Below are positions 2,291 to 29,627 of a stretch of 32,000 nucleotides of DNA, piece after piece. The position numbers were made by a program, and so were the translations under genes. Numbering within the stretch: the stretch's first letter is position 1; the number at the start of each line of letters is the position of its first letter. Below the pieces are notes generated by a model. It had not been told where the DNA came from, did not search any database, and saw nothing but the letters and a program-made list of their open reading frames with translations. Location: the NCBI GenBank assembly GCA_003568775.1, contig MWMI01000001.1, positions 1-32,000 of the forward strand, written 5' to 3'. This DNA is from Candidatus Nanoclepta minutus. Lineage in GTDB: Archaea; Nanobdellota; Nanobdellia; Nanobdellales; Nanobdellaceae.

Positions 2291-2306
2291 GGGGTTATAT
2301 AACCCA
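2291..2306. repeat. 3'-flank arm of the 23S processing helix (GGGGTTATATAACCCA on the plus strand)
   Basis: Exact reverse complement of 5244-5259. In the minus-strand precursor the two arms pair over 16 bp and bracket the 23S. Confidence 0.8.
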
Positions 2307-5243: not shown

Positions 5244-5259
5244 TGGGTTATATAACCCC
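5244..5259. repeat. 5'-flank arm of the 23S processing helix (TGGGTTATATAACCCC on the plus strand)
   Basis: Exact reverse complement of 2291-2306. Confidence 0.8.
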
Positions 5260-13749: not shown

Positions 13750-14195
13750 TGGACCTATCCTTACAAAAGAGGCTTGCTGCAGAAGTATTAGGTGTTGGTG
13801 AAGATAGAATATGGATAGATCCTAAGAAAGCTGATGAAGTTTCAAAGGCTTTAACTAGAGAAGATATTAGAAAGCTTATAAATGAGAAAGTAATCAAGGT
13901 AAAGGTTATCAGTGGCCAATCAAGGTATTGGAGCAATGTTTTACATCAACAAAGAAAAAAGGGAAGAAGGAGAGGATATGGATCCAGAAAAGGTAAGAAA
14001 TCTGCTAGGATGGGGGAAAAAGAAGAATATGTTACAAAAGTTAGATCAATGAGGAATCTAATAAGGACATTGAAGTCGAAAGGTATTATAGATAAGCATA
14101 TATATAGGAACCTTTATAACCTAATTAAAGGAGGTGCATTCAAAAGTAAAAGACATATCCTCCTATGGCTGAAAGAAAAAAGAATCATAAAATAG
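13749..14195 (+). CDS. rpl19e: 50S ribosomal protein L19e (eL19)
   Basis: LSLQKRLAAEVLGVGEDRIWIDP, and a KKGRRRGYGSRKGKK basic stretch. TAATG overlap with L15. Confidence 0.9.
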   Translation: MDLSLQKRLAAEVLGVGEDRIWIDPKKADEVSKALTREDIRKLINEKVIKVKVISGQSRYWSNVLHQQRKKGRRRGYGSRKGKKSARMGEKEEYVTKVRSMRNLIRTLKSKGIIDKHIYRNLYNLIKGGAFKSKRHILLWLKEKRIIK

Positions 14196-14302
14196 TTGCT
14201 TTTTTTCTTAATAAATCAATATTATTTTATTTTTGAAAAAACAAGTAGAAAATTCCTTTATAAAGCCTGAAACTTTATAACCTTTTATTACATTCCCTAT
14301 AT

Positions 14303-14506
14303 ATGGTAGCTAGACCATCTCCAGTTAAAGATGCCCTTAAAAATAAATTAGCAAAAGGCGTAGCTGAAAACGAACTAAACAACGTTATAGAGTCTGTAGC
14401 TAAAGAAGTTGGAAAACAACCAAGAGTAATTAAAGCATTGTTTAGCAGATATCTGAAAGCCGGATTAATAAAGAAGGAAGGTAATAGATATATCTGGTCT
14501 CAATAA
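14303..14506 (+). CDS. Small hypothetical protein (67 aa), possibly winged-helix-like
   Basis: Track ORF with TATA-like CTTTATAA ~26 nt upstream. The C-terminus ...RYLKAGLIKKEGNRYIWSQ is reminiscent of a wHTH wing. The family assignment is weak. Confidence 0.4.
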   Translation: MVARPSPVKDALKNKLAKGVAENELNNVIESVAKEVGKQPRVIKALFSRYLKAGLIKKEGNRYIWSQ

Positions 14507-14595
14507 GGCCTTAGTTATTAAATTTTTTGTTATAAATTTATTCATAAATTTTTTACAAAAAATATTAAATTAATTCTAAAAGAAAACATATATAT

Positions 14596-14670
14596 GCCCC
14601 CGTCGTCTAGTCAGGTCTAGGATACGGGGTTCTCGTCCCCGAGACCCGGGTTCAAATCCCGGCGGGGGCA
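14596..14670 (+). tRNA. tRNA-Glu (CUC)
   Basis: GCCCCCG...CGGGG-TTCTCGT-CCCCG-AGAC-CCGGG-TTCAAAT-CCCGG-CGGGGGC-A. The fold is a cloverleaf with anticodon CTC, and no CCA is encoded. Confidence 0.9.
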
Positions 14671-14677
14671 TATTTAA

Positions 14678-17600
14678 CTAATTCTCCTCAATAGATCTGT
14701 TTATGGCCTTTAATTCATTATAAACTGCATCATATAAACTTTCCAATAAATCTATGATCTCATCATCATTAAATCCAAGGATTTTGAGTATTGTATAGTC
14801 TATCCTCATTCTCGCATACATACCAGGATCTACTTTCCTTAAATAATTGAATATTTCCTCCCAATTTTTATCTCTATATTTTCTTATATAATCTAAACCT
14901 TCCTTCATTTGTTTTATTATACTTGGAAAATCTACATATTTTATTTCTTCGAATAAATCTAAAAGAACCTGCTTTTCATGATCTGAAAGCTTATCTATAT
15001 TCAGAATATAAGTTTGTAATAGATCCTTCTCCATAAATTCTGTGTAAGTTCCTGTAGTCTCTTTTATCAATTTCGTTATTTCATATAAGAAGATAATAGA
15101 GTTCAAAAAAATTGTAAGAATGGCTGCATCATATTTATTCCTAATTTCATTGAATATTATGAAAGCGTCTGTTGCAACAAACCTATTATCAGAGCATATT
15201 GCTATTATATGGGTATTTTCACTGGCTAAGCCTATCCTTCTTTGTAAAGCCACATAAGTTAAGCTATTATTTGCACTTTCTTTTATTCTAGACCAGTCGA
15301 ATTTATTCTTACTTTTCCAAAACATCTTAATTAAAGTTTCACTACCCCTATATGGCCCTATAATTATGTAATCGTATTTTTCTTCACTTAAAAATATGTT
15401 CTTTATATCGGTAAGCGTCCTTAGCGCGGGTAATACTTGATCACAGCTTAACCTAAAATTCATTGAACCATCCTTCGATCTAACGAAGATGGATATTGGA
15501 TCCTTTTTATCTAATAGAAGGTAAGCTCTCTTTATTCTATTTTTATCAAAAGGATTAGTCACAAAAACGATCTTTGATTTTCCACCGGGAGTTGTTGGAA
15601 ATCCGAACTTTGTCCAGTTTTCTCTTATTTTTACCAATTTATCCGTTGCTTTCTCTAGTATTTCTTCCATCAAATCTTCCTCTAATCCCTTTTCCTTTAA
15701 TAAAGGCATTAAGTTATTTCTATACTTTCTTAAAACTTCATATTTTATGAAATAAACATCATAAAAACCATTTGGATCAGAATACTGATATAATACCCCT
15801 TCCCTAGCTTTTTCATACAGTGATCTTAAATCCTTAACGATCCTCCTAGCTTCCTCAATTGTAAACTCAGAACTTCTAATAGATTTTTTTATAAAAACTA
15901 TTCCAGTTATATCTTCATCCCTAGGATTCCTCTTACTAGCTATAAGCAATATATCCCTAAATGCTGCCGCTTCTGAAAAAGCTAGATCTGTAAAAGGCTT
16001 TATAATCCACTTTATATGATACCTGTCTAAGAAAAAATCCCTTATTTTTTCTGTGGCTGCACCCCTAGCAAAATTTATTGGTATTACTGCCCCAATCTTC
16101 CCATTATCCTTCAATAGAAAATGAGCCAATGCCAAAAAGTATACCCATAGATTTGCCCTTCCCCCAACATTTTCTCTAATGAAAGCAAATTGATTATTAA
16201 GATGCCTCAGCTTCTCTTTGTATTCCTCAGGAAGCTTTTCATAATCAGAGAATGGGGGATTCATGATAACAACATCGAAAGGCCTAATTGAAAAAGTATC
16301 TATATTTTTTACCGGAAATCCCTCAAATATTTCCTTCAACCTATCTAAAACATAATTTGAAATCCTCCCTTTTCTAATAACTATCGCTAAATTAAATCTT
16401 CCCTTTTCCTTTAATTTCCTAAAAACGTTCTCCAACTTATTAACATTCTCATTTTCTATCCCTAAAATTGCTATAAGACTATTAGAAAGGTCTATACTTT
16501 CATCATTAATACTAAAAATCTTATACCCTTCCTCTCTTAATTTATTTGATATTTGAAGTTCCGCATCTGCTGTATCTACAGTATAAATAATTATATTCAC
16601 TTCTTTTTCTTCTTTATTATTTAAATAACTCAATAAACTCTTTTGTTTACTTTTCAAACCTTTAATCACTTTTATTAGTTCTGAAGAAACAGTCTCTAAA
16701 ACCAAAGTCCAATCCCTTTCATTTACAGACATAAACTTACTTAAAACATTCAAAGAATCCTCAACACCGATCCTCAGACTGTTAGTTTCCACATCTATGT
16801 TTTGAAGGGATAGGTTCATGGCAGCGATATGGGCAGCAAACGGCATTATATCTATACCTGTAATATCGCTCTCAACAAACTTCTTATGTAATCTAACTTC
16901 ATCTTCAACTGAATTTATCCGATATAGTTCCTTTTTAGCATTATAGGCAGCAACTAATAATGTTCCAGAACCACAAGCAGGATCTATAACGGTTTCATTA
17001 TAATTATCTATAGTTAAACCTGCCAATATTTCTGCAGCAATTGGGTGGGTATAAAAAGTTGCAAAAACTTTCCTAGTTCTAAAGGGCAATATTTCATGAT
17101 AAACCCTTCCCAACAAATCTTGTGGTATCTTCCAGACTGGATTAGCATTAAGGACGTTAATAATATTATTAACAACGTTAAGAAGCTCTTTATCATTGGG
17201 GAGTTTCTCAAAAATGTTAATACTATAGATCGCCTTAAAATCTATTTTTAAAATCTCATCAAAATATTTTTTCAACTCAAAGAAAGAAGAAATTTGCTTT
17301 AGTTCTGGCAATTTTCCTCTAGACCTTTTAGAATAGAGATAATAGAATAGAATTTGATTAACTAAAATAAAAGCCAACAAGTCTACTATCGCAGCCCTAT
17401 AGTCCTCTTCTTCCAAAAGATCTATATTATCTCCTTCCTTAGCACCCAATAAAGATTTAAACAATGAAATATCCCCAACTAAATTAACTAGAGCCTTGGA
17501 AGATTGAGATAAATAGTATGTTCTAAGTATAAAAGCCAGTTCATTTATGTATTCCTTTAAAAGCCTAACTATAGATTCTGGATTTACAAATATTTCTTTC

Positions 17601-18079
17601 TTTTCTATAAACTCTCTCAATTTTTCTATTATTTGTCTTTTTGCTTCAGAAAAAGTTATTTCACCGTCTATTATATGGAAAAATGGACTTCCATCCTTGA
17701 ATGCCGATATAATAACAAATACCTTCTTATTTTCAATAGCTTCCCTTAAAATTTGTTCCTCCTTTCCAGCAATCAATGGCAAATTTTTTATACCTTCCTC
17801 AAACTTTATCCCTATAAAACCTATAACATCCTTAATTTGAGAATAATCCTTTTTATGAGCTATTAATTTTGATATATCATTTAATATATCCGTTAGTTTG
17901 TCCAATTTACCGATTTTTACCTGAACATAGAAGGGATTACCTTTATAAGAGATTTTAATGTCTGGATACCTCCTTCCATGAATCTTAACTTCTTCAACTC
18001 CAGTAATCTCTTCCCCCAATTCCTTAAAAGTTTCTATTAATATATGATATAAGGACCTTTCCGTTGGATAATCGGCCAT
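14678..18079 (-). CDS. Large single-chain restriction-modification-like enzyme: N-terminal PD-(D/E)xK-like module + gamma-class N6-adenine DNA methyltransferase + C-terminal specificity/helical region (type IIG/IIL-like)
   Basis: 1133 aa. N-terminus E..(RRY)PD-x12-QVK (aa ~16-55). Motif X-like LGRVYHEILPFRTRKVFATFYTHPIAAEIL, motif I VIDPACGSGTLL (aa ~364-375), ITGIDIMPFAAHIAAMNL, motif IV FDVVIMNPPF (aa ~601-610). ~520 aa follow NPPF. TATA-like TTTATAAT lies ~25-30 nt upstream of the ATG. Confidence 0.8.
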   Translation of the reverse strand: MADYPTERSLYHILIETFKELGEEITGVEEVKIHGRRYPDIKISYKGNPFYVQVKIGKLDKLTDILNDISKLIAHKKDYSQIKDVIGFIGIKFEEGIKNLPLIAGKEEQILREAIENKKVFVIISAFKDGSPFFHIIDGEITFSEAKRQIIEKLREFIEKKEIFVNPESIVRLLKEYINELAFILRTYYLSQSSKALVNLVGDISLFKSLLGAKEGDNIDLLEEEDYRAAIVDLLAFILVNQILFYYLYSKRSRGKLPELKQISSFFELKKYFDEILKIDFKAIYSINIFEKLPNDKELLNVVNNIINVLNANPVWKIPQDLLGRVYHEILPFRTRKVFATFYTHPIAAEILAGLTIDNYNETVIDPACGSGTLLVAAYNAKKELYRINSVEDEVRLHKKFVESDITGIDIMPFAAHIAAMNLSLQNIDVETNSLRIGVEDSLNVLSKFMSVNERDWTLVLETVSSELIKVIKGLKSKQKSLLSYLNNKEEKEVNIIIYTVDTADAELQISNKLREEGYKIFSINDESIDLSNSLIAILGIENENVNKLENVFRKLKEKGRFNLAIVIRKGRISNYVLDRLKEIFEGFPVKNIDTFSIRPFDVVIMNPPFSDYEKLPEEYKEKLRHLNNQFAFIRENVGGRANLWVYFLALAHFLLKDNGKIGAVIPINFARGAATEKIRDFFLDRYHIKWIIKPFTDLAFSEAAAFRDILLIASKRNPRDEDITGIVFIKKSIRSSEFTIEEARRIVKDLRSLYEKAREGVLYQYSDPNGFYDVYFIKYEVLRKYRNNLMPLLKEKGLEEDLMEEILEKATDKLVKIRENWTKFGFPTTPGGKSKIVFVTNPFDKNRIKRAYLLLDKKDPISIFVRSKDGSMNFRLSCDQVLPALRTLTDIKNIFLSEEKYDYIIIGPYRGSETLIKMFWKSKNKFDWSRIKESANNSLTYVALQRRIGLASENTHIIAICSDNRFVATDAFIIFNEIRNKYDAAILTIFLNSIIFLYEITKLIKETTGTYTEFMEKDLLQTYILNIDKLSDHEKQVLLDLFEEIKYVDFPSIIKQMKEGLDYIRKYRDKNWEEIFNYLRKVDPGMYARMRIDYTILKILGFNDDEIIDLLESLYDAVYNELKAINRSIEEN

Positions 18080-18177
18080 AAATAAGATTATTAAGTAATA
18101 TTATAAAGGCTTAATTCCACAATAACCTCTAAAAACTTTCTGGAAGGAATAAAAATAAGATAAAGGCTTGCTTTAGG

Positions 18178-18450
18178 TTAATCAACTTCCAAAAATATAT
18201 TTCTAAATTTATCAGAATATATTATATGTGTACCATTATAATAGCATAGAACCCCATTTTCCATACATAAAGTATAATAAGTTTGATTTACTAGTTCTGG
18301 ATCGTACAACATAAGCTTTACCCTGAAATCTTCTATAATATATTTACTCGTATCATAGGGATAAAAAGGAATTTCTCCGATATTAAAAAAGAAATAAATT
18401 AATCCCAAAGAGATCAATAGAATAAATATAACTATAAACTGAGATCTCAT
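18178..18450 (-). CDS. Pilin-like small secreted/membrane protein, paralog 1 (90 aa)
   Basis: N-terminus MRS-QFIVIFILLISLGLIYFF (class III/type IV prepilin-like: short basic leader, small residue, hydrophobic helix). Sequons NQT and NGT, two Cys, C-terminal motif LCYYNGTHIIYS. Confidence 0.6.
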   Translation of the reverse strand: MRSQFIVIFILLISLGLIYFFFNIGEIPFYPYDTSKYIIEDFRVKLMLYDPELVNQTYYTLCMENGVLCYYNGTHIIYSDKFRNIFLEVD

Positions 18451-18785
18451 TTTAAGAATATTTCAACGAATATAGGTGTGCCGTTTATTATATAAAAGGT
18501 CCTTATGCTGTTCCTTAAATCTTCATCCGTATTATTACATGCCAAACTTCCATTAACAAAAACCTTATAGTAATCTAATATATTTGAAGCGATTTGGCAG
18601 GAATAATCTTCTAAATAAGTAACATTGGATGGATATAGGTAATTTATCGATATCAGACTCGATAGGAGGTCTTCCTCTCTAAAACCCCTTATATCATAAT
18701 AAAAGTTCGGTTTATAAGATAACAGTAAATATATGAAGAGTATAGCTATTGTAACTTCCAATATTAATAGGAAATTTGATCTCAT
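18447..18785 (-). CDS. Pilin-like small secreted/membrane protein, paralog 2 (112 aa)
   Basis: N-terminus MRS-NFLLILEVTIAILFIYLLL. Sequons NVT, NGS, NNT and NGT, two Cys, C-terminal FYIINGTPIFVE. ATGA overlaps with both neighbours. Confidence 0.6.
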   Translation of the reverse strand: MRSNFLLILEVTIAILFIYLLLSYKPNFYYDIRGFREEDLLSSLISINYLYPSNVTYLEDYSCQIASNILDYYKVFVNGSLACNNTDEDLRNSIRTFYIINGTPIFVEIFLK

Positions 18786-19192
18786 ACTTTTATTGAAAAT
18801 AGATACAAAGAGCCATTATAATAGCATACCCTTCTAAACTCTAAGAAATTATCTCTCTTCTCTCCTATTTTAAACAACAATTTTCCATCCGATATATCAA
18901 TAACCTCCAAACTAACATTATCCCTTATACCTAAACTCTTCATGTATTCATAGAAACTTGAAGGATCAGATAAATAATATATCAAGTTATCCGTTATATT
19001 ACATGTCTTATTTGAGAAGGTTTGGGACTCTGTAAGACTTTTAATTAATACCCTCCCTTCATAAAACTTCCTTAACAAGTATAATTCTTCCCTAAATGAA
19101 TTATAAGAATTCCCCACAAAGCTGATCGATAGTATGAATATCAGAGTACATATCGTTAGTACTAATATCAACTCAACCGACTTTATAAGCAT
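18782..19192 (-). CDS. Pilin-like small secreted/membrane protein, paralog 3 (136 aa)
   Basis: N-terminus MLIKS-VELILVLTICTLIFILSISF (compare the S-x-E-[FL] start of archaeal DUF361-type pilins). Sequons NKT, NIT and NGS; two Cys outside the N-terminal helix plus one within it; C-terminal VCYYNGSLYLFS. Confidence 0.6.
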   Translation of the reverse strand: MLIKSVELILVLTICTLIFILSISFVGNSYNSFREELYLLRKFYEGRVLIKSLTESQTFSNKTCNITDNLIYYLSDPSSFYEYMKSLGIRDNVSLEVIDISDGKLLFKIGEKRDNFLEFRRVCYYNGSLYLFSIKV

Positions 19193-19234
19193 ATCCTCTT
19201 TATTTTTTAAATGTTTTTATCTTTATCTTATCAC

Positions 19235-19774
19235 ATGAATACAAAACTCATATCCATGCTGAAAGAGCAAAAGAAAATAGTTACAGTCAAATCGTATAAC
19301 CTACCAATATCCAGAAAGAAAACCGTAAACTTGGCCAAATATATAAAATATCTACCATTGAAAATAGCTAAGAGGTATTTAGAGGAGATTATAGAAAAGA
19401 AAAGAGCTGTTCCATATTATAGATATAATAGAGATATCCCACACAGAAGGAACATTGATGCTAAAATAAAACAAGGAAGATATCCAGTAAAATCTGCAAA
19501 GTATATGCTAAAATTATTGAATTCTTTGGAAAAAAATGCAATAAACTTAGGTTTGGACCCTTCAAAGATACTAATTTTGTATATATTAGTTAATAAAGGC
19601 AATAGAACTCCTCTAAAAATAAACTATGAAGGTAGAAGGGTTAGGAGGAAATCCACCCATATTGAAGTTTATGGAATATTTATAGATCAATTCGATCCTT
19701 CGAAGAAATATAAAAGGAAAGAATTAAAAGCTTTAGTAGAATCAATAATTAAAGAATGGCTACAGAAAACTTAA
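19235..19774 (+). CDS. rpl22: 50S ribosomal protein L22 (uL22); start ambiguous (19211, 19235 or 19256)
   Basis: NLPISRKKTVNLAKYIKYLPLKIAKRYLEEII, QGRYPVKSAKYMLKLLNSLEKNA, THIEV. TATA-like TTTTTTAAA at ~19201-19210 favours the ATG at 19235. Confidence 0.88.
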   Translation: MNTKLISMLKEQKKIVTVKSYNLPISRKKTVNLAKYIKYLPLKIAKRYLEEIIEKKRAVPYYRYNRDIPHRRNIDAKIKQGRYPVKSAKYMLKLLNSLEKNAINLGLDPSKILILYILVNKGNRTPLKINYEGRRVRRKSTHIEVYGIFIDQFDPSKKYKRKELKALVESIIKEWLQKT

Positions 19775-20445
19775 GAAAGATAATAGAACATAAAAAGAGG
19801 GAAACCTTATTAAACTTCATTTTAAAGAGAGAATTCAAGGGAAAACTAATAAGCAGAATAATTTACTTTGATACACCTTTAGGAGAGAAGATATTAATAT
19901 TCTGTGCAAGACCAAGACTAGTATTAGGGAAAGCTAATGAGAATTTAGAAAAAATATTGAACATATGTAAAAGGATCGGGTTCAAAAATCCGCAGATTGA
20001 AGCTGTACCTGTTGAAAATCCCCTACTAGATGCTAACATTGTTGCAGATCTTATAGCTTCAAAAATAGAGAGACAGGGGGCAAGGGCAGCAAGAAAGATT
20101 GCAATGAATATTTCTGAAAGTGTAATGAAGGCTGGAGCTATTGGTATCGAAATTAGAATAACTGGAAAGGTCATAGGAGAAAGGTCTTCAACCATTAGGA
20201 TCCAGAAGGGAAAGATGAAAAAATCTGGGGAAATAAACAAGATATTTGGTACTGCCATCTCTCATGCTTTCCTTCCACAGGGTAGCGTTGGTGTAAAGGT
20301 AAAGATCCTACCACCTAATGCAACATTAATGGATAATATAAGGATTAAGAAATATAATGAATTAGATTTAGAGAAATTGGAAAAGATAGATCCTAGAATA
20401 ATAGATATATTAAACAAAAAGTATAATATTACTGGCCAACCATAA
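19756..20445 (+). CDS. rps3: 30S ribosomal protein S3 (uS3)
   Basis: A KH-domain region, then MKAGAIGIEIRITGKVIGERSSTIRIQKGKM. It overlaps the L22 end by 19 nt. Confidence 0.9.
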   Translation: MATENLRKIIEHKKRETLLNFILKREFKGKLISRIIYFDTPLGEKILIFCARPRLVLGKANENLEKILNICKRIGFKNPQIEAVPVENPLLDANIVADLIASKIERQGARAARKIAMNISESVMKAGAIGIEIRITGKVIGERSSTIRIQKGKMKKSGEINKIFGTAISHAFLPQGSVGVKVKILPPNATLMDNIRIKKYNELDLEKLEKIDPRIIDILNKKYNITGQP

Positions 20446-21685
20446 CTTCCTTTCCCATTTTATCTAAAACTATTTTTATTATATCCCTTCCATTTAGAAA
20501 TCCAAGACTTCCCTTCCTACATTGTCTTTCTCCAAACTTCTTAATTAATCCCCATCTGCTAAATGGAGAATAGATGAATATTGGAACTGGATCCGATATA
20601 TGCCTACCAAGTATACTTGAAGTCGAGTGATCTCCAGTTAATACTATTATATCGAATTCTTCCTTAATCCTCCCTATAAACTCCTCATCAATCCTCTCTA
20701 TGAATTTCTTCTTTTCCTTCGGGTTTCTATCATGTGAAAGGCTATCGGTAGCCTTTATATGGACGAATATAATATCATATTTGTCCCTATTAGATATCGC
20801 AGCCTCAGCCTTAGAAAAAAGGGAAGTCCTAACAGTTGCAGTAGCCCCAACAGGTCTATATGCATCCATACCGAGGTATCTTGCAACACCTAAGTATAAA
20901 GCTCCACCAGCAATAAACAAAGATCTTATTCCATACCTTTTCTGAAATCTTTCCTCATCAGGAAGTTCCTTATATTTAGAAGCTCCCCTAATTAAGATAT
21001 AATTTATTGGAAGTAAATTCTTTTTCCTTCTATCATCGTTTATCGGATGCTTATTTGAAAATATATAGAACCTCTCTATTAATTTATTTAAAATTTCAGC
21101 TGTAATCTTTGCTTTTTCTTCTAAAGGTTCTATCCTTATAATTTTCTCGTTTTCTACATGTAAATCATTTGGAGATACTTTCTCGCTTTCTAAACCCCTC
21201 ATTATTAAAACTCCTCTATGCTCAACTGTATGAATAAGGTCTATCTCAACTCCATATTCTTTCTCTATTTTTTCTATTTCTTCCTCAAAATCCCTTAAAA
21301 TTATATCTAAACCGTAATCATTCCTCCCTATCCTTCTATCTATTATTATATCGTTCATAACGGTGGAAAAATTAACCCTATACGCTATATCACCCTCCTT
21401 CAAGCCTATCTTCATACCTAACTTTATTTCACTTCCAATAGCCTCCAATATCCCCCTACCGGGATATACGTTTAGCTCATATCCAAAAAGCGATATATGT
21501 CCCGTATCGCTTCCAGGAACAATACCCCTTTCTATTATATTAACTAAACCACAATCAGAATATCTAGCAAGCTTATCGATATTGTTTTTCTTAGCAGCCT
21601 CTAAAGGAGTTTTATTCCCCAGATCCTTTATTACATGATCTCCTAATCCATCCAAAATTACAAAAAGTGTTTTAAATGAGCTCAT
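20429..21685 (-). CDS. apgM: Cofactor-independent phosphoglycerate mutase, archaeal type (ApgM)
   Basis: LFVILDGLGD, GSDTGHISLFGY, IFVHIKATDSLSHD, VLTGDHSTS. These are metalloenzyme-superfamily motifs of archaeal iPGM. Confidence 0.88.
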   Translation of the reverse strand: MSSFKTLFVILDGLGDHVIKDLGNKTPLEAAKKNNIDKLARYSDCGLVNIIERGIVPGSDTGHISLFGYELNVYPGRGILEAIGSEIKLGMKIGLKEGDIAYRVNFSTVMNDIIIDRRIGRNDYGLDIILRDFEEEIEKIEKEYGVEIDLIHTVEHRGVLIMRGLESEKVSPNDLHVENEKIIRIEPLEEKAKITAEILNKLIERFYIFSNKHPINDDRRKKNLLPINYILIRGASKYKELPDEERFQKRYGIRSLFIAGGALYLGVARYLGMDAYRPVGATATVRTSLFSKAEAAISNRDKYDIIFVHIKATDSLSHDRNPKEKKKFIERIDEEFIGRIKEEFDIIVLTGDHSTSSILGRHISDPVPIFIYSPFSRWGLIKKFGERQCRKGSLGFLNGRDIIKIVLDKMGKEVMVGQ

Positions 21686-21722
21686 GCATTTTTATAGTTT
21701 TACGTTAAATTTATGTTTTATA

Positions 21723-21807
21723 GCGGGGGTGCCCGAGAGGTCAAAGGGGTCGGGCTCAAGACCCGATGGGCTCAGGCCCACCAGGGGTTCGAATCCCCTC
21801 CCCCGCA
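21723..21807 (+). tRNA. tRNA-Leu (CAA), class II with long variable arm
   Basis: GCGGGGG-TG-CCCGAGAGGTCAAAGGGG-TCGGG-CTCAAGA-CCCGA-TGGGCTCAGGCCCAC-CAGGGG-TTCGAAT-CCCCT-CCCCCGC-A. Confidence 0.9.
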
Positions 21808-21810
21808 TAA

Positions 21811-22038
21811 CTAGAACTTTATGTTCCCCGATATATACCTTTTAGCCATTTTCTTGGCCTTTCTAAAGCATTTTAAATGAACATAATACTTTTGATTTTG
21901 AAAAGATATCGTTTTATATTCTTCATCCTTATATATTGGTTTATTACAAACAATGCAATTTCCTATAACTTTTTCTTCCTCTTTCTTTACCTCTTTCTCC
22001 TTTTTTTCTTTCTTAAAGATTCTCTCAAATAATCCCAT
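21811..22038 (-). CDS. Small hypothetical zinc-ribbon-like protein (75 aa)
   Basis: A K/E-rich N-terminus followed by CIVC...(x22)...HLKC. No family recognised. Confidence 0.4.
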   Translation of the reverse strand: MGLFERIFKKEKKEKEVKKEEEKVIGNCIVCNKPIYKDEEYKTISFQNQKYYVHLKCFRKAKKMAKRYISGNIKF

Positions 22039-25481: not shown

Positions 25482-25502
25482 TTTATCTTAGTTATCATAA
25501 AA

Positions 25503-25519
25503 CATTTAAGGCTTTAAAG
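25503..25519. promoter_or_regulatory. Back-to-back TATA-like boxes (CATTTAAGGCTTTAAAG) of a bidirectional promoter
   Basis: TTTAA elements are centred ~26 nt upstream of the minus-strand ATG at 25481 and ~28 nt upstream of the first sense codons of the plus-strand DUF460 gene (25544). This spacing fits archaeal TATA-to-TSS distance with leaderless mRNAs. Confidence 0.45.
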
Positions 25520-25543
25520 ATAGGATAATATATTAAGGCAAAA

Positions 25544-26521
25544 ATTATAGGAATAGATCCCGGAACTACTATAGGAATTGTAGTTTTAGATGAGGATGGA
25601 TTAGTTGAATATCATACGAGCGGGAAGAACCTATCAACAAGTGAAATAATAAAGATACTGAAGAGGATTGAGGGTATAGTCTTAATTTCTACTGATAGAT
25701 CTAAAATACCTAAAAAAATTGTTGAAATATCCTCCAAACTAAACGTTGGTATATACCACCCAGATAAGGATATACCGATAAAGAAAAAGAAGAAATTCTA
25801 TGAAGACGAGACATTAAAGACTAAATTAGATAACATACACGAGATAGATGCTTATATTGCTGCATATTTTGCTCTAATGGATATCAAGGATATAATAAGA
25901 AAGGCTAGAAAAGTTTCGAAGGATGATAAAGAATATATAGAACTTCTAAAAGTTAGCTTAAGGAATAGGAAGATAGAACCTGTTTCTGCAAAAATTTTAA
26001 TGGAGGAGAAAGAGGAAAGGAAAGATAAAATTATAAAGAAGAAAATAAAGAAGGGTAAAATGCGTATGGATAGAGAAATAATAGATATAAAGGTAGAAAA
26101 TAGAGAAAACCATGATATAAAATATTATAAGGAAATCTTAGAAAGATATTCTAAAAAGTATCTTAAACTCTTGAACAATTATGATAAACTATCAGAGATA
26201 CTAATTGGAAAGATAAAGGATGACCAAAAGATAGTACCTAAAGTTTCATTCTTAGTCAAAAAGAAGATTGAATTCGATAGGGTATTTATAGATTCCTTTT
26301 CAGAGGATGTATGGAATTATCTAATAAAACAGAAACCTAAGGTATATATAAAGGAGGAGGACATAGACAAAATACCGAGGATGTTTAAGGAGAAATATAT
26401 CGTATTGGAATATATAGACCTCCGTAATTTTATTATATTAGAAAAATACAACGTTTTAAAGGAAGATTCGAGGGTAGATATAGAGAAGATTAAGAAGATT
26501 ATAGACAGTCTTAGGTACTGA
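25544..26521 (+). CDS. DUF460/COG2433-like protein (RNase H-fold, RuvC/YqgF-like N-terminal domain + coiled coil); no canonical start codon
   Basis: The track calls only 25877..26521, but the same frame is open from 25529. It encodes (K)IIGIDPGTTIGIVVLDEDGLVEYHTSGKNLSTSEIIKILKRIEGIVLISTDRSKIPKKIVEISSKL...NIHEIDAYIAAYFAL, the hallmark N-terminus of archaeal DUF460 proteins. There is no ATG/GTG/TTG between the stop at 25526-25528 and 25877. ATT (25544) or ATA (25547) are the only AUN candidates at the expected position. Confidence 0.65.
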   Translation: MIGIDPGTTIGIVVLDEDGLVEYHTSGKNLSTSEIIKILKRIEGIVLISTDRSKIPKKIVEISSKLNVGIYHPDKDIPIKKKKKFYEDETLKTKLDNIHEIDAYIAAYFALMDIKDIIRKARKVSKDDKEYIELLKVSLRNRKIEPVSAKILMEEKEERKDKIIKKKIKKGKMRMDREIIDIKVENRENHDIKYYKEILERYSKKYLKLLNNYDKLSEILIGKIKDDQKIVPKVSFLVKKKIEFDRVFIDSFSEDVWNYLIKQKPKVYIKEEDIDKIPRMFKEKYIVLEYIDLRNFIILEKYNVLKEDSRVDIEKIKKIIDSLRY

Positions 26522-26890
26522 AAAGTGTAATGTTAAAACAAGGCTATAGGGGTATTCTTGTAAGATAATCTTTTAATATATTATTATATTATTTATTACT
26601 TATTAGTAGTATTATAGTTTCAGGAAATATAAAATAAGAGTTATAGTTTTCATGAGGTGTATGAAAAAGCTTAAAAATCAGCTTTTAAACATATTGTATA
26701 TCAATATTTATAAACATTCCCAAAATAAAGAAAGAATAAAGGGTAATAGAGGCAGATAACATATTTAAGCAGAAATTAAATAAAAATAGGAAAAACGATG
26801 CAATAAATTATTAAAAAGATGTAAGAATATCTTTTCTTTAAAAATTTATAAACACATTAGGTTTTTAATGATTTTTTACAATAATATGGT
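26522..26890. other. Candidate replication origin region (AT-rich, repeat-bearing intergenic region upstream of cdc6/orc1)
   Basis: This is the longest non-coding stretch in the window (369 bp), directly upstream of cdc6. It contains imperfect direct repeats TGTAAGATAATCTTTT (26559-26574) / TGTAAGAATATCTTTT (26820-26835), TTATAGTTTCAGGA (26612-26625) / TTATAGTTTTCATGA (26641-26655), and ATTTATAAACA (26706-26716 / 26844-26854), plus a small palindrome AAAGCTTAAAAATCAGCTTT (~26666-26685). Confidence 0.45.
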
Positions 26891-28135
26891 ATGGCGAGAT
26901 CTAATATTATAGACTTCTTAGTTGGAGATATTGATTTTTTAAAACAGAAAAAGTCTATTATAAAAAACAGAGAGGTTTTATCTGAGGATTTCGTTCCAGA
27001 AAGAATATTGTTTAGAGAAGAGCAATTAAACATAACTTTAACATCGATTAGAAGATTCCTAATTTTTGGGGAAGGTTTAAACATCTTGTTCTTTGGAAAT
27101 ACAGGAACTGGTAAGACCTTATTAGCAAGATATATATCTAAATCTATAAAGAAGCTAAATCTGAAGGAGAAGATGAATATAAAGACTTCATATGTTAATT
27201 GTAAGGGGTTCTTCATAAAAGAAGCAGATTATTATATAATAGGAAAAATGTACAGCGATATTACAGGCGATAGGTTTAGAAAAGGAAAGAAGAAATATGA
27301 GATGTTTGAAAGTATAATTAACTATATGAATAGCAAGGATTATAAGGCTATTATTTTCTTAGACGAGTTTGATTCTCTGTTTAATAAGAAAAATACAGAA
27401 GATCTATTGTATGCTCTTATAAGAGATTTAGATATAGAGTACTCTAATAGGTTTTCCTTAGTTATGATAACGAATAGTGTTTCATTTTTCGATGAGTTGG
27501 ATTCTAGGATAAAATCTTCGTTTTCTTCTTTTGTAAAAGTTAACTTTCCATCCTATAAAGCTACAGATCTAAGCGAGATATTAAAGGAGAGGGCTTATTT
27601 AGCATTGGAAGAGGGATCCATCAGCGAATCTCTTATAAATTATATATCAGCTAGAGTTGCAAAACATCATTCAGGGGATGCAAGAGTTGCTATAAACGTT
27701 TTAAAGCTCTCAGCCTTAATTGCTGATTCAAAGGGAAAGAACAAAATAGAGAAGGAAGATATAGATGAAGCATTTGAAAATCTCGATTATGATTTATTGA
27801 AGTTCATTGTATCTTCCTTAAACACTACTCAAAAGATTCTATCTTTGGCTCTAGTTGAGGGATCCTTGAGAAAGAAGGACGAATATATATCTTTTGAAGA
27901 ACTTTATAATATGTATGTTGAGATTTCTTCTAGGCTTTCTATAGCTCCTCTAAAGAGAATAACTGTCTTTAGGAATATGTGCAATTTAGAAATGATATTT
28001 GGAAGCTTTCTGGAAGTAAGAACAGTATCTGAAGGTAGGAGAGGAGGTTATAAAAAGATATATAAGCTTTTAATTGATGAGGAATCGATGAAAAAATTAT
28101 ATGATCTTCTGAGGGATAAGATATTTAATGCATAA
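26891..28135 (+). CDS. cdc6: Orc1/Cdc6 replication initiator
   Basis: LSEDFVPERILFREEQL, Walker A FGNTGTGKTLLA, Walker B IIFLDEFD, sensor regions (MITNS; GDARVAINVLK), and a C-terminal winged helix. Confidence 0.9.
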   Translation: MARSNIIDFLVGDIDFLKQKKSIIKNREVLSEDFVPERILFREEQLNITLTSIRRFLIFGEGLNILFFGNTGTGKTLLARYISKSIKKLNLKEKMNIKTSYVNCKGFFIKEADYYIIGKMYSDITGDRFRKGKKKYEMFESIINYMNSKDYKAIIFLDEFDSLFNKKNTEDLLYALIRDLDIEYSNRFSLVMITNSVSFFDELDSRIKSSFSSFVKVNFPSYKATDLSEILKERAYLALEEGSISESLINYISARVAKHHSGDARVAINVLKLSALIADSKGKNKIEKEDIDEAFENLDYDLLKFIVSSLNTTQKILSLALVEGSLRKKDEYISFEELYNMYVEISSRLSIAPLKRITVFRNMCNLEMIFGSFLEVRTVSEGRRGGYKKIYKLLIDEESMKKLYDLLRDKIFNA

Positions 28136-29627
28136 TAAAAAGGTTTTAGAGGAGCTATATGAGAAGGGTTTTTTAATTTCAGTTGATGTAGAACCTATCT
28201 TATCATCATTAAATGAAGATGAAATAAGGAATTTGATAAAAAAGTTAGAAGAAGAAAAGGTATTGGTAGTTGATAAAAATGTTTTAGAGAAATTTTTAGA
28301 GAAAAAAGAAGAAAAGCCTGAAGAAGTAATTATAATCGATAAAAAAGAAAGGTATGTTGGGGAGGAAGAAGAGTTGCCAATAAAAATTATAAAAAATATA
28401 GACATTCAAAAGTATGAGATAAATGTTAATACTTGGATATCTTACTTTAGGCATAGGATTAACAAAATAAAGAAAATATTGAGGGAGCACCTTGATATGA
28501 AGGATATGCACAGTCTATCTGATGTTCCATCAGGAAGACAGGTCTCCATCGCGGGATTGATTTATGATAAGAGGATAACCGAGAAGGGAGTTATATTCAA
28601 TTTGGAAGACATTACAGGTTCTATTAAGGTTTTGGTAAGAAAGGATGTAAAGAATTTTGATATAATTAAGGATATACCATTAGACTCTGTTATAGGTTTT
28701 AGGGGCAAAATGGGTAACGGAATTTTTTATGCGGATGATGTTATTTTTCCGGATGTTCCGATCAGAAATGAAACTAAAAAGGGAAATATAGACTCTTATA
28801 TTGTATTTACTGGAGATTTTCAATTCGGTAATAAGGCTTTTATAAGGGAAGCTTTTGAAAGGTTTTTGGATTTCCTGAATGGAAGATACGGAAACGATAA
28901 AATGAAGGAGATATCTAAGAAGATAGGATACGTATTAATTGTTGGGGATAATGTGGATGGAGTAGGTATATATGGTGAACAAGAAAACGAATTATATGCC
29001 TTTTCATATGAGGATCAATATAAAGAATTTGAAAAATATCTATTAAGTTTTCCAGAACATATAAAGGTTGTTATATGCCCGGGTAACCATGATAACGTTA
29101 GATTAGCTGATCCTCAACCACCTTTATCGAAGGATCTAGTACCTGAATTAAAAAACCTTGATAACTTCTATTTTATTTCTAGTCCAGGCTATGTAAAAAT
29201 TGATGAACTAACCGTTCTAATGTACCATGGTTATACCTTTGATTGGTTCGTTTCGGATATATTTTACATAAGGAAAAAGGGAGGATACGAGAATGTTCAA
29301 GAAATAATGAAGTTCATGCTGATGATAAGGCATTTGAACCCAACACACGGAAGCAACCCATATATACCATATTATAACGATGATCCTTTGGTTATAGACC
29401 TATTACCAGATATATTCCATACAGGACATATACATAGAGCAGATTATGGTGTTTATAGAGGTATAGAGCTATTTAACTCCTCTACTTTTCAAGGTTTAAC
29501 TAAATACCAAATAGAAATGGGCCATAAGCCAGAACCAGGAATTGTATACCTCAGAAACATTAAAACTGGTGAGGTATTATCGATAGACTTTATTAATGAG
29601 AAGATAAGTCGTTGTCATAATAAATAA
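28128..29627 (+). CDS. DNA polymerase II (PolD) small subunit DP1
   Basis: N-terminal helical domain, an OB-like middle region (ISIAGLIYDKR...FNLEDITGSIKVLV), and a calcineurin-like phosphoesterase core (FTGDFQFG, VGDNVDG, PGNHD, GHIH). 8-nt overlap with cdc6. Confidence 0.88.
   Translation: MHNKKVLEELYEKGFLISVDVEPILSSLNEDEIRNLIKKLEEEKVLVVDKNVLEKFLEKKEEKPEEVIIIDKKERYVGEEEELPIKIIKNIDIQKYEINVNTWISYFRHRINKIKKILREHLDMKDMHSLSDVPSGRQVSIAGLIYDKRITEKGVIFNLEDITGSIKVLVRKDVKNFDIIKDIPLDSVIGFRGKMGNGIFYADDVIFPDVPIRNETKKGNIDSYIVFTGDFQFGNKAFIREAFERFLDFLNGRYGNDKMKEISKKIGYVLIVGDNVDGVGIYGEQENELYAFSYEDQYKEFEKYLLSFPEHIKVVICPGNHDNVRLADPQPPLSKDLVPELKNLDNFYFISSPGYVKIDELTVLMYHGYTFDWFVSDIFYIRKKGGYENVQEIMKFMLMIRHLNPTHGSNPYIPYYNDDPLVIDLLPDIFHTGHIHRADYGVYRGIELFNSSTFQGLTKYQIEMGHKPEPGIVYLRNIKTGEVLSIDFINEKISRCHNK

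What the first reader, a model, noticed from the sequence alone, without database searches (positions are those of the whole stretch)
14596..18079. Stand-alone 1133-aa nuclease-like + N6-adenine methyltransferase fusion ending 8 nt from tRNA-Glu
This is the only defence-type gene in the window and a very large investment for a compact genome. Its architecture is an N-terminal PD-(D/E)xK-like core in which the usual ExK is QVK (PD-x12-QVK), then a helical linker, a gamma-class MTase (FYTHP...DPACGSGTLL...NPPF) and ~520 aa of presumed target-recognition and helical region. That matches type IIG/IIL (MmeI-like) single-chain enzymes. No separate S, R, PglZ/BrxC-type or helicase partners are adjacent. 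The Q-for-E substitution and the FYTHP variant of the usual FYTP motif raise a question. The protein may still cleave DNA, may be a methylase-only derivative, or may work with other factors. Its position directly beside a tRNA 3' end fits a horizontally acquired cargo, although its composition looks fully ameliorated.
Basis: partly seen in the sequence, partly recalled or inferred. Interest (0 to 1): 0.7.

Follow-up and report, generated by a model that had tools for sequence, protein, structure and literature searches.

The report
Inserted single-gene restriction-methylase in a nanoarchaeon
This 1133-residue gene of the tiny symbiotic archaeon Candidatus Nanoclepta minutus is a self-contained restriction-modification-type enzyme (nuclease-like domain fused to a DNA adenine methylase) that was inserted as a 3.5-kb single-gene piece next to a tRNA gene. 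It is an unusual variant of a known kind of enzyme, not a new kind of system.

Summary
The ORF is 14678..18079 (-), 1133 aa, convergent with tRNA-Glu(CTC), with 6-7 nt between them. The motifs PD-x12-QVK, FYTHP, DPACGSGTLL and NPPF are all present.

It belongs to a large, patchily distributed, uncharacterised family (379 clusters at E<=1e-30), typically about 960 aa. The family has no conserved neighbour gene. Its predicted fold best matches the type IIG enzyme BpuSI: N-terminal PD-(D/E)xK domain, helical connector, gamma-class N6-adenine methylase, then a variable C-terminal region.

Horizontal acquisition is shown directly. Two syntenic relatives have the same gene order with an empty site, and two others carry a different gene there, one of them another DNA methylase. 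The closest homologues lie on an 11.4-kb circular element of Methanocaldococcus villosus and on ORFan-rich contigs.

FYTHP is the family norm. Q53 is derived (E in 104/111). In every QxK sequence it comes with a Gln-to-Asp change in the next helix (D68 here). QxK is catalytic in MspJI/Mrr. The nuclease site therefore looks remodelled rather than decayed; cleavage remains untested.

Verdict: a new variant of a known kind, of moderate interest.

The parts
14678..18079 (-). Complete ORF, 1133 aa (stop codon TAG at 14678-14680): single-chain fusion of a nuclease-like domain and an N6-adenine DNA methylase
17600..18079 (-). N-terminal PD-(D/E)xK-like (Hjc-like) domain, aa 1-160. Candidate catalytic residues: E7, D40, Q53, K55, plus D68 in the following helix
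   Evidence: The a-b-b-b-a-b topology appears in both AlphaFold models. Family counts: E7 110/110, D40 111/111, K55 109/111, E53 104/111. Family N-domains hit Pfam Hjc in 8/28 (best 5.4e-6), DpnII-MboI in 5/28 and PDDEXK_9 in 4/28. The query itself hits none of these. Foldseek of the isolated domain is not significant.
17915..17962 (-). D40-x12-Q53-V-K55 motif (DIKISYKGNPFYVQVK)
17876..17878 (-). D68 codon. The helix residue is Asp in all QxK sequences and Gln (QxxxY motif) in ExK family members
17120..17599 (-). Helical connector, aa 161-320
   Evidence: All-helical in the model. It corresponds to the BpuSI connector, residues 175-289.
16745..17119 (-). Methylase domain, N-terminal half, aa 321-445: motif X FYTHP, motif I DPACGSGTLL, motif II ITGIDI, motif III EDSL
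   Evidence: Pfam N6_Mtase stretch 320-444; invariant columns
16286..16744 (-). Clade-specific insertion between methylase motifs III and IV, aa 446-598. It contains a long low-confidence helix followed by an alpha/beta subdomain at about aa 488-588
   Evidence: Alignment gap in all roughly 960-aa homologues. Only one 50%-identity cluster out of 1.84 billion representatives is collinear across it. Secondary structure. No homologue was found for the segment alone.
15875..16285 (-). Methylase domain, C-terminal half, aa 599-735, including motif IV NPPF (16250-16261)
15080..15874 (-). Variable C-terminal region, aa 736-1000: presumed target-recognition domain
   Evidence: It is the least conserved long segment within the clade (41-43% identity against 57-86% for the others). 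The whole model aligns over methylase plus DNA-recognition domain with CamA (TM 0.70) and BpuSI.
14681..15079 (-). C-terminal helical region, aa 1001-1133, with a roughly 25-aa clade-specific insertion (aa ~1062-1088)
18080..18177 (-). 98-bp upstream region carried on the inserted segment. A TATA-like CTTTATAA lies about 27 nt before the ATG, which would give a leaderless transcript (inferred)
   Evidence: the promoter role is inferred
14672..18177 (.). The 3506-bp segment absent from the syntenic loci of relatives: the ORF plus its upstream region, and nothing else
14595..14671 (+). tRNA-Glu(CTC): the left border of the insertion, not part of the gene

Best explanation
The gene is a horizontally acquired, self-sufficient single-chain restriction-modification enzyme of type IIG architecture. 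It belongs to a large uncharacterised family whose nearest solved relative is BpuSI.

Shown:
- The protein has an N-terminal PD-(D/E)xK-type domain, a helical connector, a gamma-class N6-adenine DNA methylase with intact SAM-binding and NPPF motifs, and a variable C-terminal region.
- The family has no conserved partner gene.
- The 3.5-kb unit (ORF plus 98 bp upstream) is present in N. minutus and absent from the same syntenic site in related nanoarchaea.

Inferred mechanism:
- The C-terminal region reads a short asymmetric DNA sequence, and the methylase flips out and methylates an adenine in it, marking the nanoarchaeal genome as self.
- On unmethylated incoming DNA, the N-terminal domain, held at a fixed distance by the connector, cuts outside the site, as in BpuSI- or MmeI-type enzymes.
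- In this clade the nuclease centre has been rebuilt. Its acidic residue has moved from strand beta-3 (E53 to Q) to the next helix (Q to D68).
- I judge nuclease activity to be retained with a probability of about 0.55. Methylation activity is very likely.
- The clade-specific alpha/beta insertion between methylase motifs III and IV probably modulates DNA access, oligomerisation or the coupling of restriction to modification. Its role is unknown.
For: Methylase domain:
- Pfam N6_Mtase scores 74.6 bits against a cut-off of 20.4; Eco57I and MmeI_Mtase also hit.
- PADLOC's best hits are type IIG REase-MTase, type II MTase and type I MTase models.
- Motifs F342-Y-T, D366, G370-S-G-T and N607-P-P are invariant in 112 sequences.

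Architecture:
- The AlphaFold model has pLDDT 85.9 and pTM 0.83.
- Foldseek's top hit is BpuSI 3s1s, E=9.6e-23 over the whole length. PglX/BrxX, CamA (TM 0.70), M.BseCI, BsaXI and DrdV follow.
- The BpuSI domain order and its E21/D60/E76/K78 residues parallel E7/D40/Q53/K55 here.

Nuclease domain:
- Canonical a-b-b-b-a-b core.
- Family N-domains hit Pfam Hjc in 8/28 (best 5.4e-6), PDDEXK_9 and DpnII-MboI.
- A PDB profile search gives only Hjc and other PD-(D/E)xK proteins, at E about 1.

Active-site retention:
- D40 and K55 are among only 7 invariant columns across the QxK and ExK sequences compared, and E7 is kept in every sequence that covers it.
- The N-domain is 57-70% identical within the clade, no lower than the protein as a whole.
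- E53Q is always accompanied by helix Q-to-D: 8 of 8 QxK sequences against 0 of 104 ExK sequences. The clade member L096 also carries QVK with Asp at K55+13.
- MspJI uses D...QxK, and its Q355A mutant is inactive (PMC2938202).

Solitary status: no conserved neighbour in 79 loci.

Horizontal acquisition:
- Empty syntenic sites in L091 and L092. The spot holds a different methylase in L093 and a prenyltransferase in L094.
- The family is patchily spread over archaea and bacteria.
- The closest relatives sit on an 11.4-kb circular M. villosus element and on an ORFan-only contig.
Against: - No biochemical or methylome data exist for any family member that I could find.
- The query's own N-domain hits no nuclease model. 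Foldseek of the isolated domain finds nothing at E<1e-3; the best hit is MGME1 at 3e-3 with TM 0.26.
- The E53 position is E in 104/111 relatives, and the QxxxY helix motif (Q in 100/112, Y in 105/112) is lost.
- The N-domain and connector diverged much faster than the methylase on the branch to this clade: 24% and 30% identity to the family, against 44% and 52% within the family. The methylase halves show 58-60% against 62-68%. This also fits loss of the original nuclease role.
- The E-to-Q / Q-to-D correlation rests on only one to three independent lineages.
Confidence: 0.8

Rival explanations
1. Methylase-only derivative. The nuclease centre is dead (E53Q, loss of QxxxY). The protein acts as an orphan or solitary DNA adenine methylase. 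The N-domain and connector are kept for folding, DNA binding or regulation. The benefit would be epigenetic marking, or protection of nanoarchaeal DNA against restriction enzymes of the host or community.
For: - E53 is E in 104/111 relatives, and the helix Q/Y motif is lost in the query clade.
- The N-domain and connector show accelerated divergence relative to the methylase.
- The query N-domain matches no nuclease profile, and Foldseek is not significant.
- CamA, an orphan methylase, matches the methylase-plus-C-terminal part well (TM 0.70).
- E-to-Q mutants of classical PD-(D/E)xK enzymes are generally inactive (established knowledge).
Against: - D40 and K55 are among only 7 invariant columns across all QxK and ExK sequences compared, and E7 is kept in every sequence that covers it.
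- The E53Q change is always paired with a new helix Asp.
- QxK is catalytic in MspJI/Mrr.
- About 320 residues of useless N-terminus would be an odd thing to keep intact in a genome reputed to be strongly reduced (my knowledge, not measured here), and across five clade members that are 53-65% identical.
Confidence: 0.35
2. The gene is ancestral at this locus and was deleted in the relatives, rather than inserted in N. minutus.
For: Composition and codon usage are indistinguishable from neighbouring genes. No integrase, att repeat or transposase is present. The relatives with empty sites are only 70-76% identical in L19e, so much time has passed.
Against: - None of four syntenic relatives has it: two empty sites and two with unrelated genes.
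- No other nanoarchaeon appears among the 80 listed (of 150 confirmed) genome hits.
- The nearest homologues are in Methanocaldococcus-type mobile elements and a Woesearchaeote, not in nanoarchaea.
- The empty sites are precise: the stop codon of the 90-aa gene abuts the tRNA.
Confidence: 0.08
3. Component of a multi-gene system (BREX PglX-like, type I HsdM-like or type ISP-like) whose partners lie elsewhere in the genome.
For: There are weak NCBIfam hits to BREX PglX models and structural similarity to PglX/BrxX. The HsdM-like connector plus methylase fold is also present.
Against: - PglX model scores are far below their cut-offs (55.9 against 500).
- No PglZ, BrxC, HsdS, HsdR or helicase gene is in the window.
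- No neighbour is conserved in 79 family loci.
- The protein has its own C-terminal recognition-type region and its own nuclease-type domain.
Confidence: 0.05
4. Housekeeping RNA (rRNA or tRNA) or protein methyltransferase, as some automatic annotations of homologues suggest ('predicted RNA methylase', 'TrmN6').
For: Weak hits to UPF0020/RlmKL-like and PrmC models. The NPPF/NPPY motif is shared with some RNA and protein N-methylases.
Against: - Those hits are below their cut-offs (19.7 against 22.3; 17.1 against 466).
- The distribution is patchy, not universal.
- The gene is absent from close relatives at the same locus.
- It occurs on a small circular element.
- Its best structural relatives are all DNA methylases or RM enzymes.
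Confidence: 0.02

Closest known systems
RM.BpuSI (type IIG/IIS/IIC restriction-modification enzyme of Bacillus pumilus; PDB 3S1S; PMC3185434)
   Same: It is the best whole-chain structural match (Foldseek E=9.6e-23). The domain order is the same: N-terminal PD-(D/E)xK nuclease (BpuSI 6-174; E21, D60, E76, K78), helical connector (175-289), gamma-class N6-adenine methylase, then a C-terminal recognition region. The E...D...xK spacing here (E7, D40, Q53, K55) is comparable.
   Different: - Only 13% identity. By sequence only the methylase part is detectable (profile E=0.006).
- The motif is QxK instead of ExK, and motif IV is NPPF rather than NPPY.
- A roughly 110-aa insertion sits inside the methylase domain.
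- This family is solitary at its loci. From my own recollection, not checked here, BpuSI is accompanied by separate methylases.
- The nuclease domain here is Hjc-like by profile. BpuSI's is FokI-like.
MmeI family (type IIL; PDB 5HR4; PMC4833311)
   Same: A solitary single-chain enzyme that combines nuclease, gamma-class methylase and recognition domain, with no partner gene. There is a partial Pfam MmeI_Mtase hit (35.4 bits, positions 21-92 of 259).
   Different: No match to the MmeI N-terminal, helical, TRD or C-terminal Pfam models. MmeI is not among the top 50 structural matches, whereas BpuSI, PglX, CamA and DrdV are. One-strand methylation and 20/18 cleavage were not testable.
BREX PglX/BrxX methylase (PDB 8C45, 9EWZ)
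   Same: Second-best structural match (E about 5e-17, TM about 0.4). It shares an Eco57I-type gamma methylase with a C-terminal recognition region.
   Different: NCBIfam PglX models score 23-56 bits against cut-offs of 400-900. There are no BREX partner genes. From my own knowledge, not checked here, PglX lacks a PD-(D/E)xK nuclease motif.
Archaeal Holliday-junction resolvase Hjc / AHJR-like PD-(D/E)xK nucleases (Pfam PF01870)
   Same: The family's N-domain hits Hjc in 8/28 members (best E=5.4e-6). The PD...EVK segment aligns with the Hjc catalytic segment. The E-D-E-K constellation and core topology are the same.
   Different: Here it is a domain fused to a methylase. The query copy is too diverged to hit the model, and it has QxK.
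Mrr/MspJI-type nucleases (D...(Q/E)xK catalytic motif; PMC2938202)
   Same: The D...QxK variant of the PD-(D/E)xK motif is present. In MspJI both D334 and Q355 are essential. This shows that Gln at this position is compatible with catalysis.
   Different: No detectable homology beyond the superfamily. Mrr and MspJI are modification-dependent enzymes without a methylase domain. The resemblance concerns the motif only.

Membership tests
Gamma-class N6-adenine DNA methyltransferase (HsdM/Eco57I-like) | Motif order X (FxTP-type), then I (DPxCGSG), then IV (NPPF/Y), with the recognition region C-terminal | tested here: met
   FYTHP at 342-346, DPACGSGTLL at 366-375, NPPF at 607-610. These positions are invariant across 112 homologues.
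Gamma-class N6-adenine DNA methyltransferase (HsdM/Eco57I-like) | Curated profile score above threshold | tested here: met
   Pfam N6_Mtase 74.6 bits (cut-off 20.4); Eco57I 57.4 bits (cut-off 25.3)
Gamma-class N6-adenine DNA methyltransferase (HsdM/Eco57I-like) | Sequence-specific m6A formation in DNA | not testable with these tools
   Needs methylome sequencing or an in vitro assay
Type IIG restriction-modification enzymes | Nuclease, methylase and target recognition in one polypeptide | tested here: met
   Domain layout from the AlphaFold model and a full-length match to BpuSI
Type IIG restriction-modification enzymes | Canonical nuclease catalytic motif (E...PD...ExK) | tested here: not met
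   E7, D40 and K55 are present, but position 53 is Q where 104/111 relatives have E. A compensating D68 is proposed. QxK is catalytic in MspJI.
Type IIG restriction-modification enzymes | SAM-stimulated endonuclease activity at or near the recognition site | not testable with these tools
   Biochemistry required
MmeI family / type IIL | MmeI-type N-terminal nuclease, helical spacer, TRD and C-terminal domains (Pfam MmeI_* models) | tested here: not met
   Only MmeI_Mtase hits, covering positions 21-92 of 259. No other MmeI model hits at E<=1.
MmeI family / type IIL | Solitary gene with no second methylase or partner | tested here: met
   No conserved neighbour in 79 loci. The window neighbours are ribosomal and tRNA genes.
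BREX PglX | Equivalog-level profile score, and PglZ/BrxC/BrxL neighbours | tested here: not met
   55.9 bits against cut-off 500 (BREX-1) and 23 bits against 400 (BREX-2). No such neighbours.
Type I HsdM | Separate HsdS and HsdR genes | tested here: not met
   None in the window or in the family loci
PD-(D/E)xK nuclease superfamily (N-terminal domain) | Core alpha-beta-beta-beta-alpha-beta fold, with Asp at the start of strand 2 and (D/E)xK in strand 3 | tested here: met
   H7-20, E25-31, E40-45, E48-57, H63-74, E87-94. D40 sits at the start of strand 2 and Q53/K55 lie in strand 3.
PD-(D/E)xK nuclease superfamily (N-terminal domain) | Significant profile or fold match to known members | tested here: inconclusive

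The most novel reading that the evidence does not exclude
The small hyperthermophile-associated clade may not be a conventional restriction enzyme at all. This clade comprises Nanoclepta, the M. villosus 11.4-kb circle and two metagenomic contigs. It has a rebuilt nuclease centre (E53Q plus a new helix Asp, with the QxxxY motif lost) and a unique alpha/beta module inserted next to the SAM/adenine pocket. Together these could make a methylase whose nuclease-derived domain and inserted module form a new regulatory or sensing device. Examples would be cleavage or binding that depends on modification, like the D-QxK Mrr/MspJI enzymes, or an addiction-type module that stabilises small mobile elements.

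In addition, the site after tRNA-Glu may be an integrase-free hotspot where nanoarchaea swap methylase or defence cassettes.
Probability: 0.12. Interest if true: 0.6.

Novelty: new variant of a known kind. Interest (0 to 1): 0.4.

Why it matters
Nanoarchaea are obligate ectosymbionts with strongly reduced genomes. A 3.4-kb single-gene restriction-modification unit, inserted cleanly between a tRNA and housekeeping genes, shows that such genomes still take up and keep mobile defence-type genes. A different methylase at the same spot in a relative points to a recurrent insertion site.

The family is large (379 clusters at E<=1e-30) and is found widely in DPANN, Asgard, Bathyarchaeia and Patescibacteria, among others. 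I could not identify a characterised member. It would be a source of new thermostable type IIG specificities.

The paired E-to-Q and Q-to-D change is a neat natural case of an active-site carboxylate moving within a PD-(D/E)xK nuclease. It can be tested with four point mutants.

None of this changes the basic picture: this is an RM-type enzyme.

Tried and rejected
1. Integrated element using the tRNA as att site. No repeat of the tRNA 3' part was found in 13800-22000, and no integrase is present. Only a 6-bp TTAACT/TCAACT pair flanks the insert, which is weak and could be chance.

2. Origin of the insertion domain. A search with aa 491-599 found nothing. This is uninformative, because even the parent proteins were not scored. 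Pfam hits in that stretch (GFRP, PTH2) have E about 0.1-0.3 and I rejected them.

4. Viral origin. Only one distant full-length relative (30% identity) was found in 2.9 million viral contigs. The other seven hits cover only part of the methylase region.

5. dN/dS between clade members was not attempted, because synonymous sites are saturated at 53-65% protein identity. Per-domain identities were used instead.

6. The M. villosus element's other proteins (1073 aa, 194 aa) have no credible Pfam hit (only sub-threshold hits for the 1073-aa protein) and no PHROG hit. The L096 neighbours likewise have none.

7. ORB-like origin repeats next to orc1/cdc6: none convincing.

8. Literature searches on Nanoclepta with 'methyltransferase' or 'restriction' returned 3 and 5 papers, none of which names the gene in its title or abstract. 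I did not open their full texts.

Full report
**1. The observation**

The window comes from Candidatus Nanoclepta minutus. The protein is 100% identical to an NCBI entry from that organism, on a 193,791-bp contig. The window also holds a full archaeal 23S rRNA gene at 2295-5255.

The ORF at 14678..18079 (-) is intact: 1133 aa with an ATG start. tRNA-Glu(CTC) lies at 14595-14671 (+) and is convergent with it. Six to seven nucleotides separate the tRNA 3' end from the TAG stop codon. The neighbours are ribosomal protein genes, HisRS, FEN1, a phosphoglycerate mutase, orc1/cdc6 and a PolD small subunit. None is a partner for a multi-gene defence system.

**2. What the protein is**

Sequence profiles identify a gamma-class N6-adenine DNA methylase. 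Pfam N6_Mtase scores 74.6 bits against a cut-off of 20.4, Eco57I gives 2.5e-15, and there is a partial MmeI_Mtase hit. PADLOC's best models are type IIG REase-MTase and type II/I methylases. BREX PglX models score an order of magnitude below their cut-offs.

The methylase domain is matched in two pieces, aa 320-444 and about 596-730. The reason is a segment of roughly 150 aa between motif III (EDSL) and motif IV (NPPF).

An AlphaFold2 model built on 112 homologues is confident (pLDDT 85.9, pTM 0.83). Its best PDB match is the type IIG enzyme BpuSI over the whole chain (E=9.6e-23). PglX/BrxX, CamA (TM 0.70 on the target), M.BseCI, BsaXI and DrdV follow.

The published BpuSI layout is nuclease 6-174 (with E21, D60, E76, K78), helical connector 175-289, methylase 293-579, then TRD (PMC3185434). 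This protein parallels it:
- Nuclease-like domain, aa 1-160, with E7, D40, Q53 and K55.
- Helical connector, aa 161-320.
- Methylase, aa 321-735.
- Variable region, aa 736-1000.
- Helical C-terminus.

The 736-1000 region is the least conserved long segment within the clade (41-43% identity), as expected for a target-recognition domain. That assignment is inferred.

**3. The family**

There are 629 homologues in the word-indexed search. In the exhaustive search of 1.84 billion representatives, 379 clusters score E<=1e-30, 1254 score E<=1e-10 and 3533 score E<=1e-3. Typical length is about 960 aa.

Among species-representative genomes the family is patchy:
- Archaea: Bathyarchaeia, Aenigmatarchaeota, Woesearchaeota, Micrarchaeota, Diapherotrites, Thermoplasmata, Methanobrevibacter, Methanosphaera and Asgard archaea.
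- Bacteria: Patescibacteria, Ignavibacteria, Bacteroidota (including the cultured Thermoflexibacter ruber DSM 9560), Chloroflexota and Armatimonadota.

No other nanoarchaeon appears among the 80 listed loci of 150 confirmed relatives. An all-against-all comparison of flanking ORFs from 79 loci found no conserved neighbour. The largest recurring group covered 6 loci and simply reflects synteny among related Bathyarchaeia. The family is therefore a solitary single-gene system. It is essentially absent from viral contigs.

**4. The N-terminal domain**

In both models the core is helix, three strands, helix, strand. D40 sits at the start of strand 2, and Q53 and K55 lie in strand 3.

Across the family the constellation is almost invariant: E7 110/110, D40 111/111, E53 104/111, K55 109/111. 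It is followed by a helix motif AQAxxY (Q in 100/112, Y in 105/112).

Family N-domains scanned one by one hit Pfam Hjc in 8 of 28 (best 5.4e-6), DpnII-MboI in 5 and PDDEXK_9 in 4. There are single weak hits to other PD-(D/E)xK families. A PDB profile search returns only Hjc and other PD-(D/E)xK proteins, at E about 1.

The query's own N-domain hits none of these. Foldseek of the isolated domain model (pLDDT 90.2) is not significant; the best hit is MGME1 at 3e-3 with TM 0.26. The fold assignment therefore rests on topology, motif and family-level profile hits. It does not rest on a direct structural match of the query.

**5. Is the nuclease dead?**

Q53 is derived. It is not a private defect, however. 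All members of the query's clade have QVK:
- the query;
- P0002, from a Logan assembly;
- P0003, from M. villosus;
- L096, from a JGI metagenome;
- the sister sequence L003/P0004 from a Woesearchaeote, whose start is hidden by a run of N.

Four further sequences in the same 22-leaf subclade also have QVK.

D40 and K55 are among only 7 invariant columns when QxK and ExK sequences are aligned together, and E7 is kept in every sequence that covers it. Within the clade the N-domain is 57-70% identical, the same as the protein overall.

In every QxK sequence the helix Gln of the AQAxxY motif is replaced by Asp. That Asp lies at K55+13 in seven sequences (D68 in the query) and at +11 in L003, which has a 2-residue shorter loop. 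No ExK sequence has Asp there. I read this as relocation of the carboxylate. This is an inference: the distance in the model could not be measured, and the correlation rests on one to three lineages.

A D...QxK site is catalytic in MspJI, where Q355A abolishes activity, and the Mrr motif is written (D/E)...(D/E/Q)xK (PMC2938202).

Against activity:
- The Tyr of QxxxY is not conserved in the clade.
- The N-domain and connector diverged about twice as much from the family as the methylase did.

I put retained cleavage at about 0.55 and methylase-only at about 0.35.

**6. The insertion in the methylase domain**

Relative to the roughly 960-aa homologues, the query, P0002, P0003 and L096 carry about 110 extra residues between motifs III and IV. 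These are modelled as a long low-confidence helix followed by a compact alpha/beta unit at about aa 488-588 (strands 495-501, 520-523, 535-539 and 563-569; helices 504-516, 543-559 and 575-584), with pLDDT 82-91.

In the exhaustive search only one 50%-identity cluster is collinear with the query across this region. All other hits break at about 445/595. The sister L003/P0004 lacks the alpha/beta unit, so E53Q predates the insertion. No homologue of the segment was found (uninformative). Its function is unknown.

**7. Horizontal acquisition**

Orthologues of the neighbouring L19e gene led to syntenic contigs.
- L091 (70% L19e identity) and L092 (73%) have the same order: HisRS, L15, L19e, a 67-aa gene, tRNA-Glu, three small hydrophobic-protein genes, L22, S3, phosphoglycerate mutase, FEN1. 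They have no large gene after the tRNA.
- In L092 the stop codon of the 90-aa gene abuts the tRNA.
- The window differs by a 3506-bp segment, 14672-18177. It consists of the ORF plus 98 bp upstream, which include a TATA-like CTTTATAA about 27 nt before the ATG.
- A third relative (L093, Nanopusillaceae) carries a different gene at the same place: a beta-class PF01555 DNA methylase of at least 676 aa.
- A fourth relative (L094) carries a prenyltransferase there.

There is no att-like tRNA repeat or integrase. Only a 6-bp TTAACT/TCAACT pair flanks the insert, which is weak.

Composition is native-like. The nearest homologues come from similarly AT-rich DNA (27-29% GC), so composition cannot date the event.

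The M. villosus copy lies on an 11.4-kb contig that two assemblies report as exact rotations of each other, so it is a circle. L096 shares 81% nucleotide identity with that copy over the gene, but has otherwise unrelated neighbours, all ORFans. The gene therefore travels as a cassette among hyperthermophile-associated mobile DNA.

**8. Comparison and verdict**

The protein works like, and is built like, a type IIG single-chain RM enzyme. BpuSI is the nearest solved structure, and the solitary life style resembles that of MmeI. Membership of the MmeI family, BREX PglX and type I HsdM was tested and not met. The strict nuclease-motif criterion for type IIG is not met (QxK), and enzyme activities are untestable here.

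This is a new variant of a known kind: an uncharacterised family, with a clade-specific remodelled nuclease centre and a unique insertion in the methylase domain. Interest is moderate (0.4).

Noticed in passing
L093:11195-13222 (Nanopusillaceae GCA_038735675.1), the site equivalent to window 14672-18177: A different DNA methylase gene occupies the same position after tRNA-Glu as the 1133-aa gene in the window. It matches Pfam N6_N4_Mtase, with the domain starting at residue 416, and is at least 676 aa, cut by the contig end. In L094 a prenyltransferase sits there. This suggests a recurrent insertion hotspot.
   Followed up: partly
L001 / L002 (Methanocaldococcus villosus KIN24-T80, 11,376 and 11,375 bp): Two assemblies give the same contig as exact rotations (100% identity in two blocks). 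It is therefore a small circular element. It carries the closest named homologue plus ORFs of 1073, 194, 73, 72 and 41 aa. The two largest (1073 and 194 aa) were scanned and have no credible Pfam hit and no PHROG hit; the three small ones have no precomputed Pfam hit. It looks like an undescribed plasmid or virus-like replicon.
   Followed up: partly
L029, L032, L038, L041 (one MAG labelled Rikenella microfusus, SulCav_GS10_10): Four separate copies of the family occur in a single metagenome-assembled genome. This suggests paralogue expansion, perhaps with different specificities, or else a binning artefact.
   Followed up: no
window 18178-19192 (-): Three consecutive small ORFs (90, 112 and 136 aa), each with an N-terminal hydrophobic segment (MRSQFIVIFILL..., MRSNFLLILEV..., MLIKSVELILVL...). 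They have no Pfam hit but are conserved in synteny in four related nanoarchaeal contigs. They may be pilin-like or class III signal-peptide proteins. A T2SSE-type ATPase gene lies at 770-2269.
   Followed up: partly
window 25500-27000: This is the most AT-rich stretch of the window (GC 0.255-0.29). It lies directly upstream of orc1/cdc6 (26891-28135) and the PolD small subunit (28128-29627), so it is a candidate replication origin. No convincing ORB-type repeats were found.
   Followed up: partly
L096:7235-7360 and L001:3445-3570: A 126-bp segment, 83% identical, is shared between the two Methanocaldococcus-type loci outside the methylase gene, but in a different position relative to it: just downstream in L096 and about 1.1 kb upstream in L001. 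It may be a remnant of the cassette border or a small conserved element.
   Followed up: no
window 14303-14506 (+): A 67-aa ORF with no Pfam hit is conserved in length (66-67 aa) and position, between L19e and tRNA-Glu, in all four syntenic relatives. It is likely a real small nanoarchaeal gene.
   Followed up: no
A2 alignment, sequences P0028 and P0041: Two family members have EVE instead of EVK at the nuclease motif (Lys55 replaced by Glu, as in BamHI-type sites). They lie in the same subclade that contains the QVK variants, so the active site is unusually plastic there.
   Followed up: no
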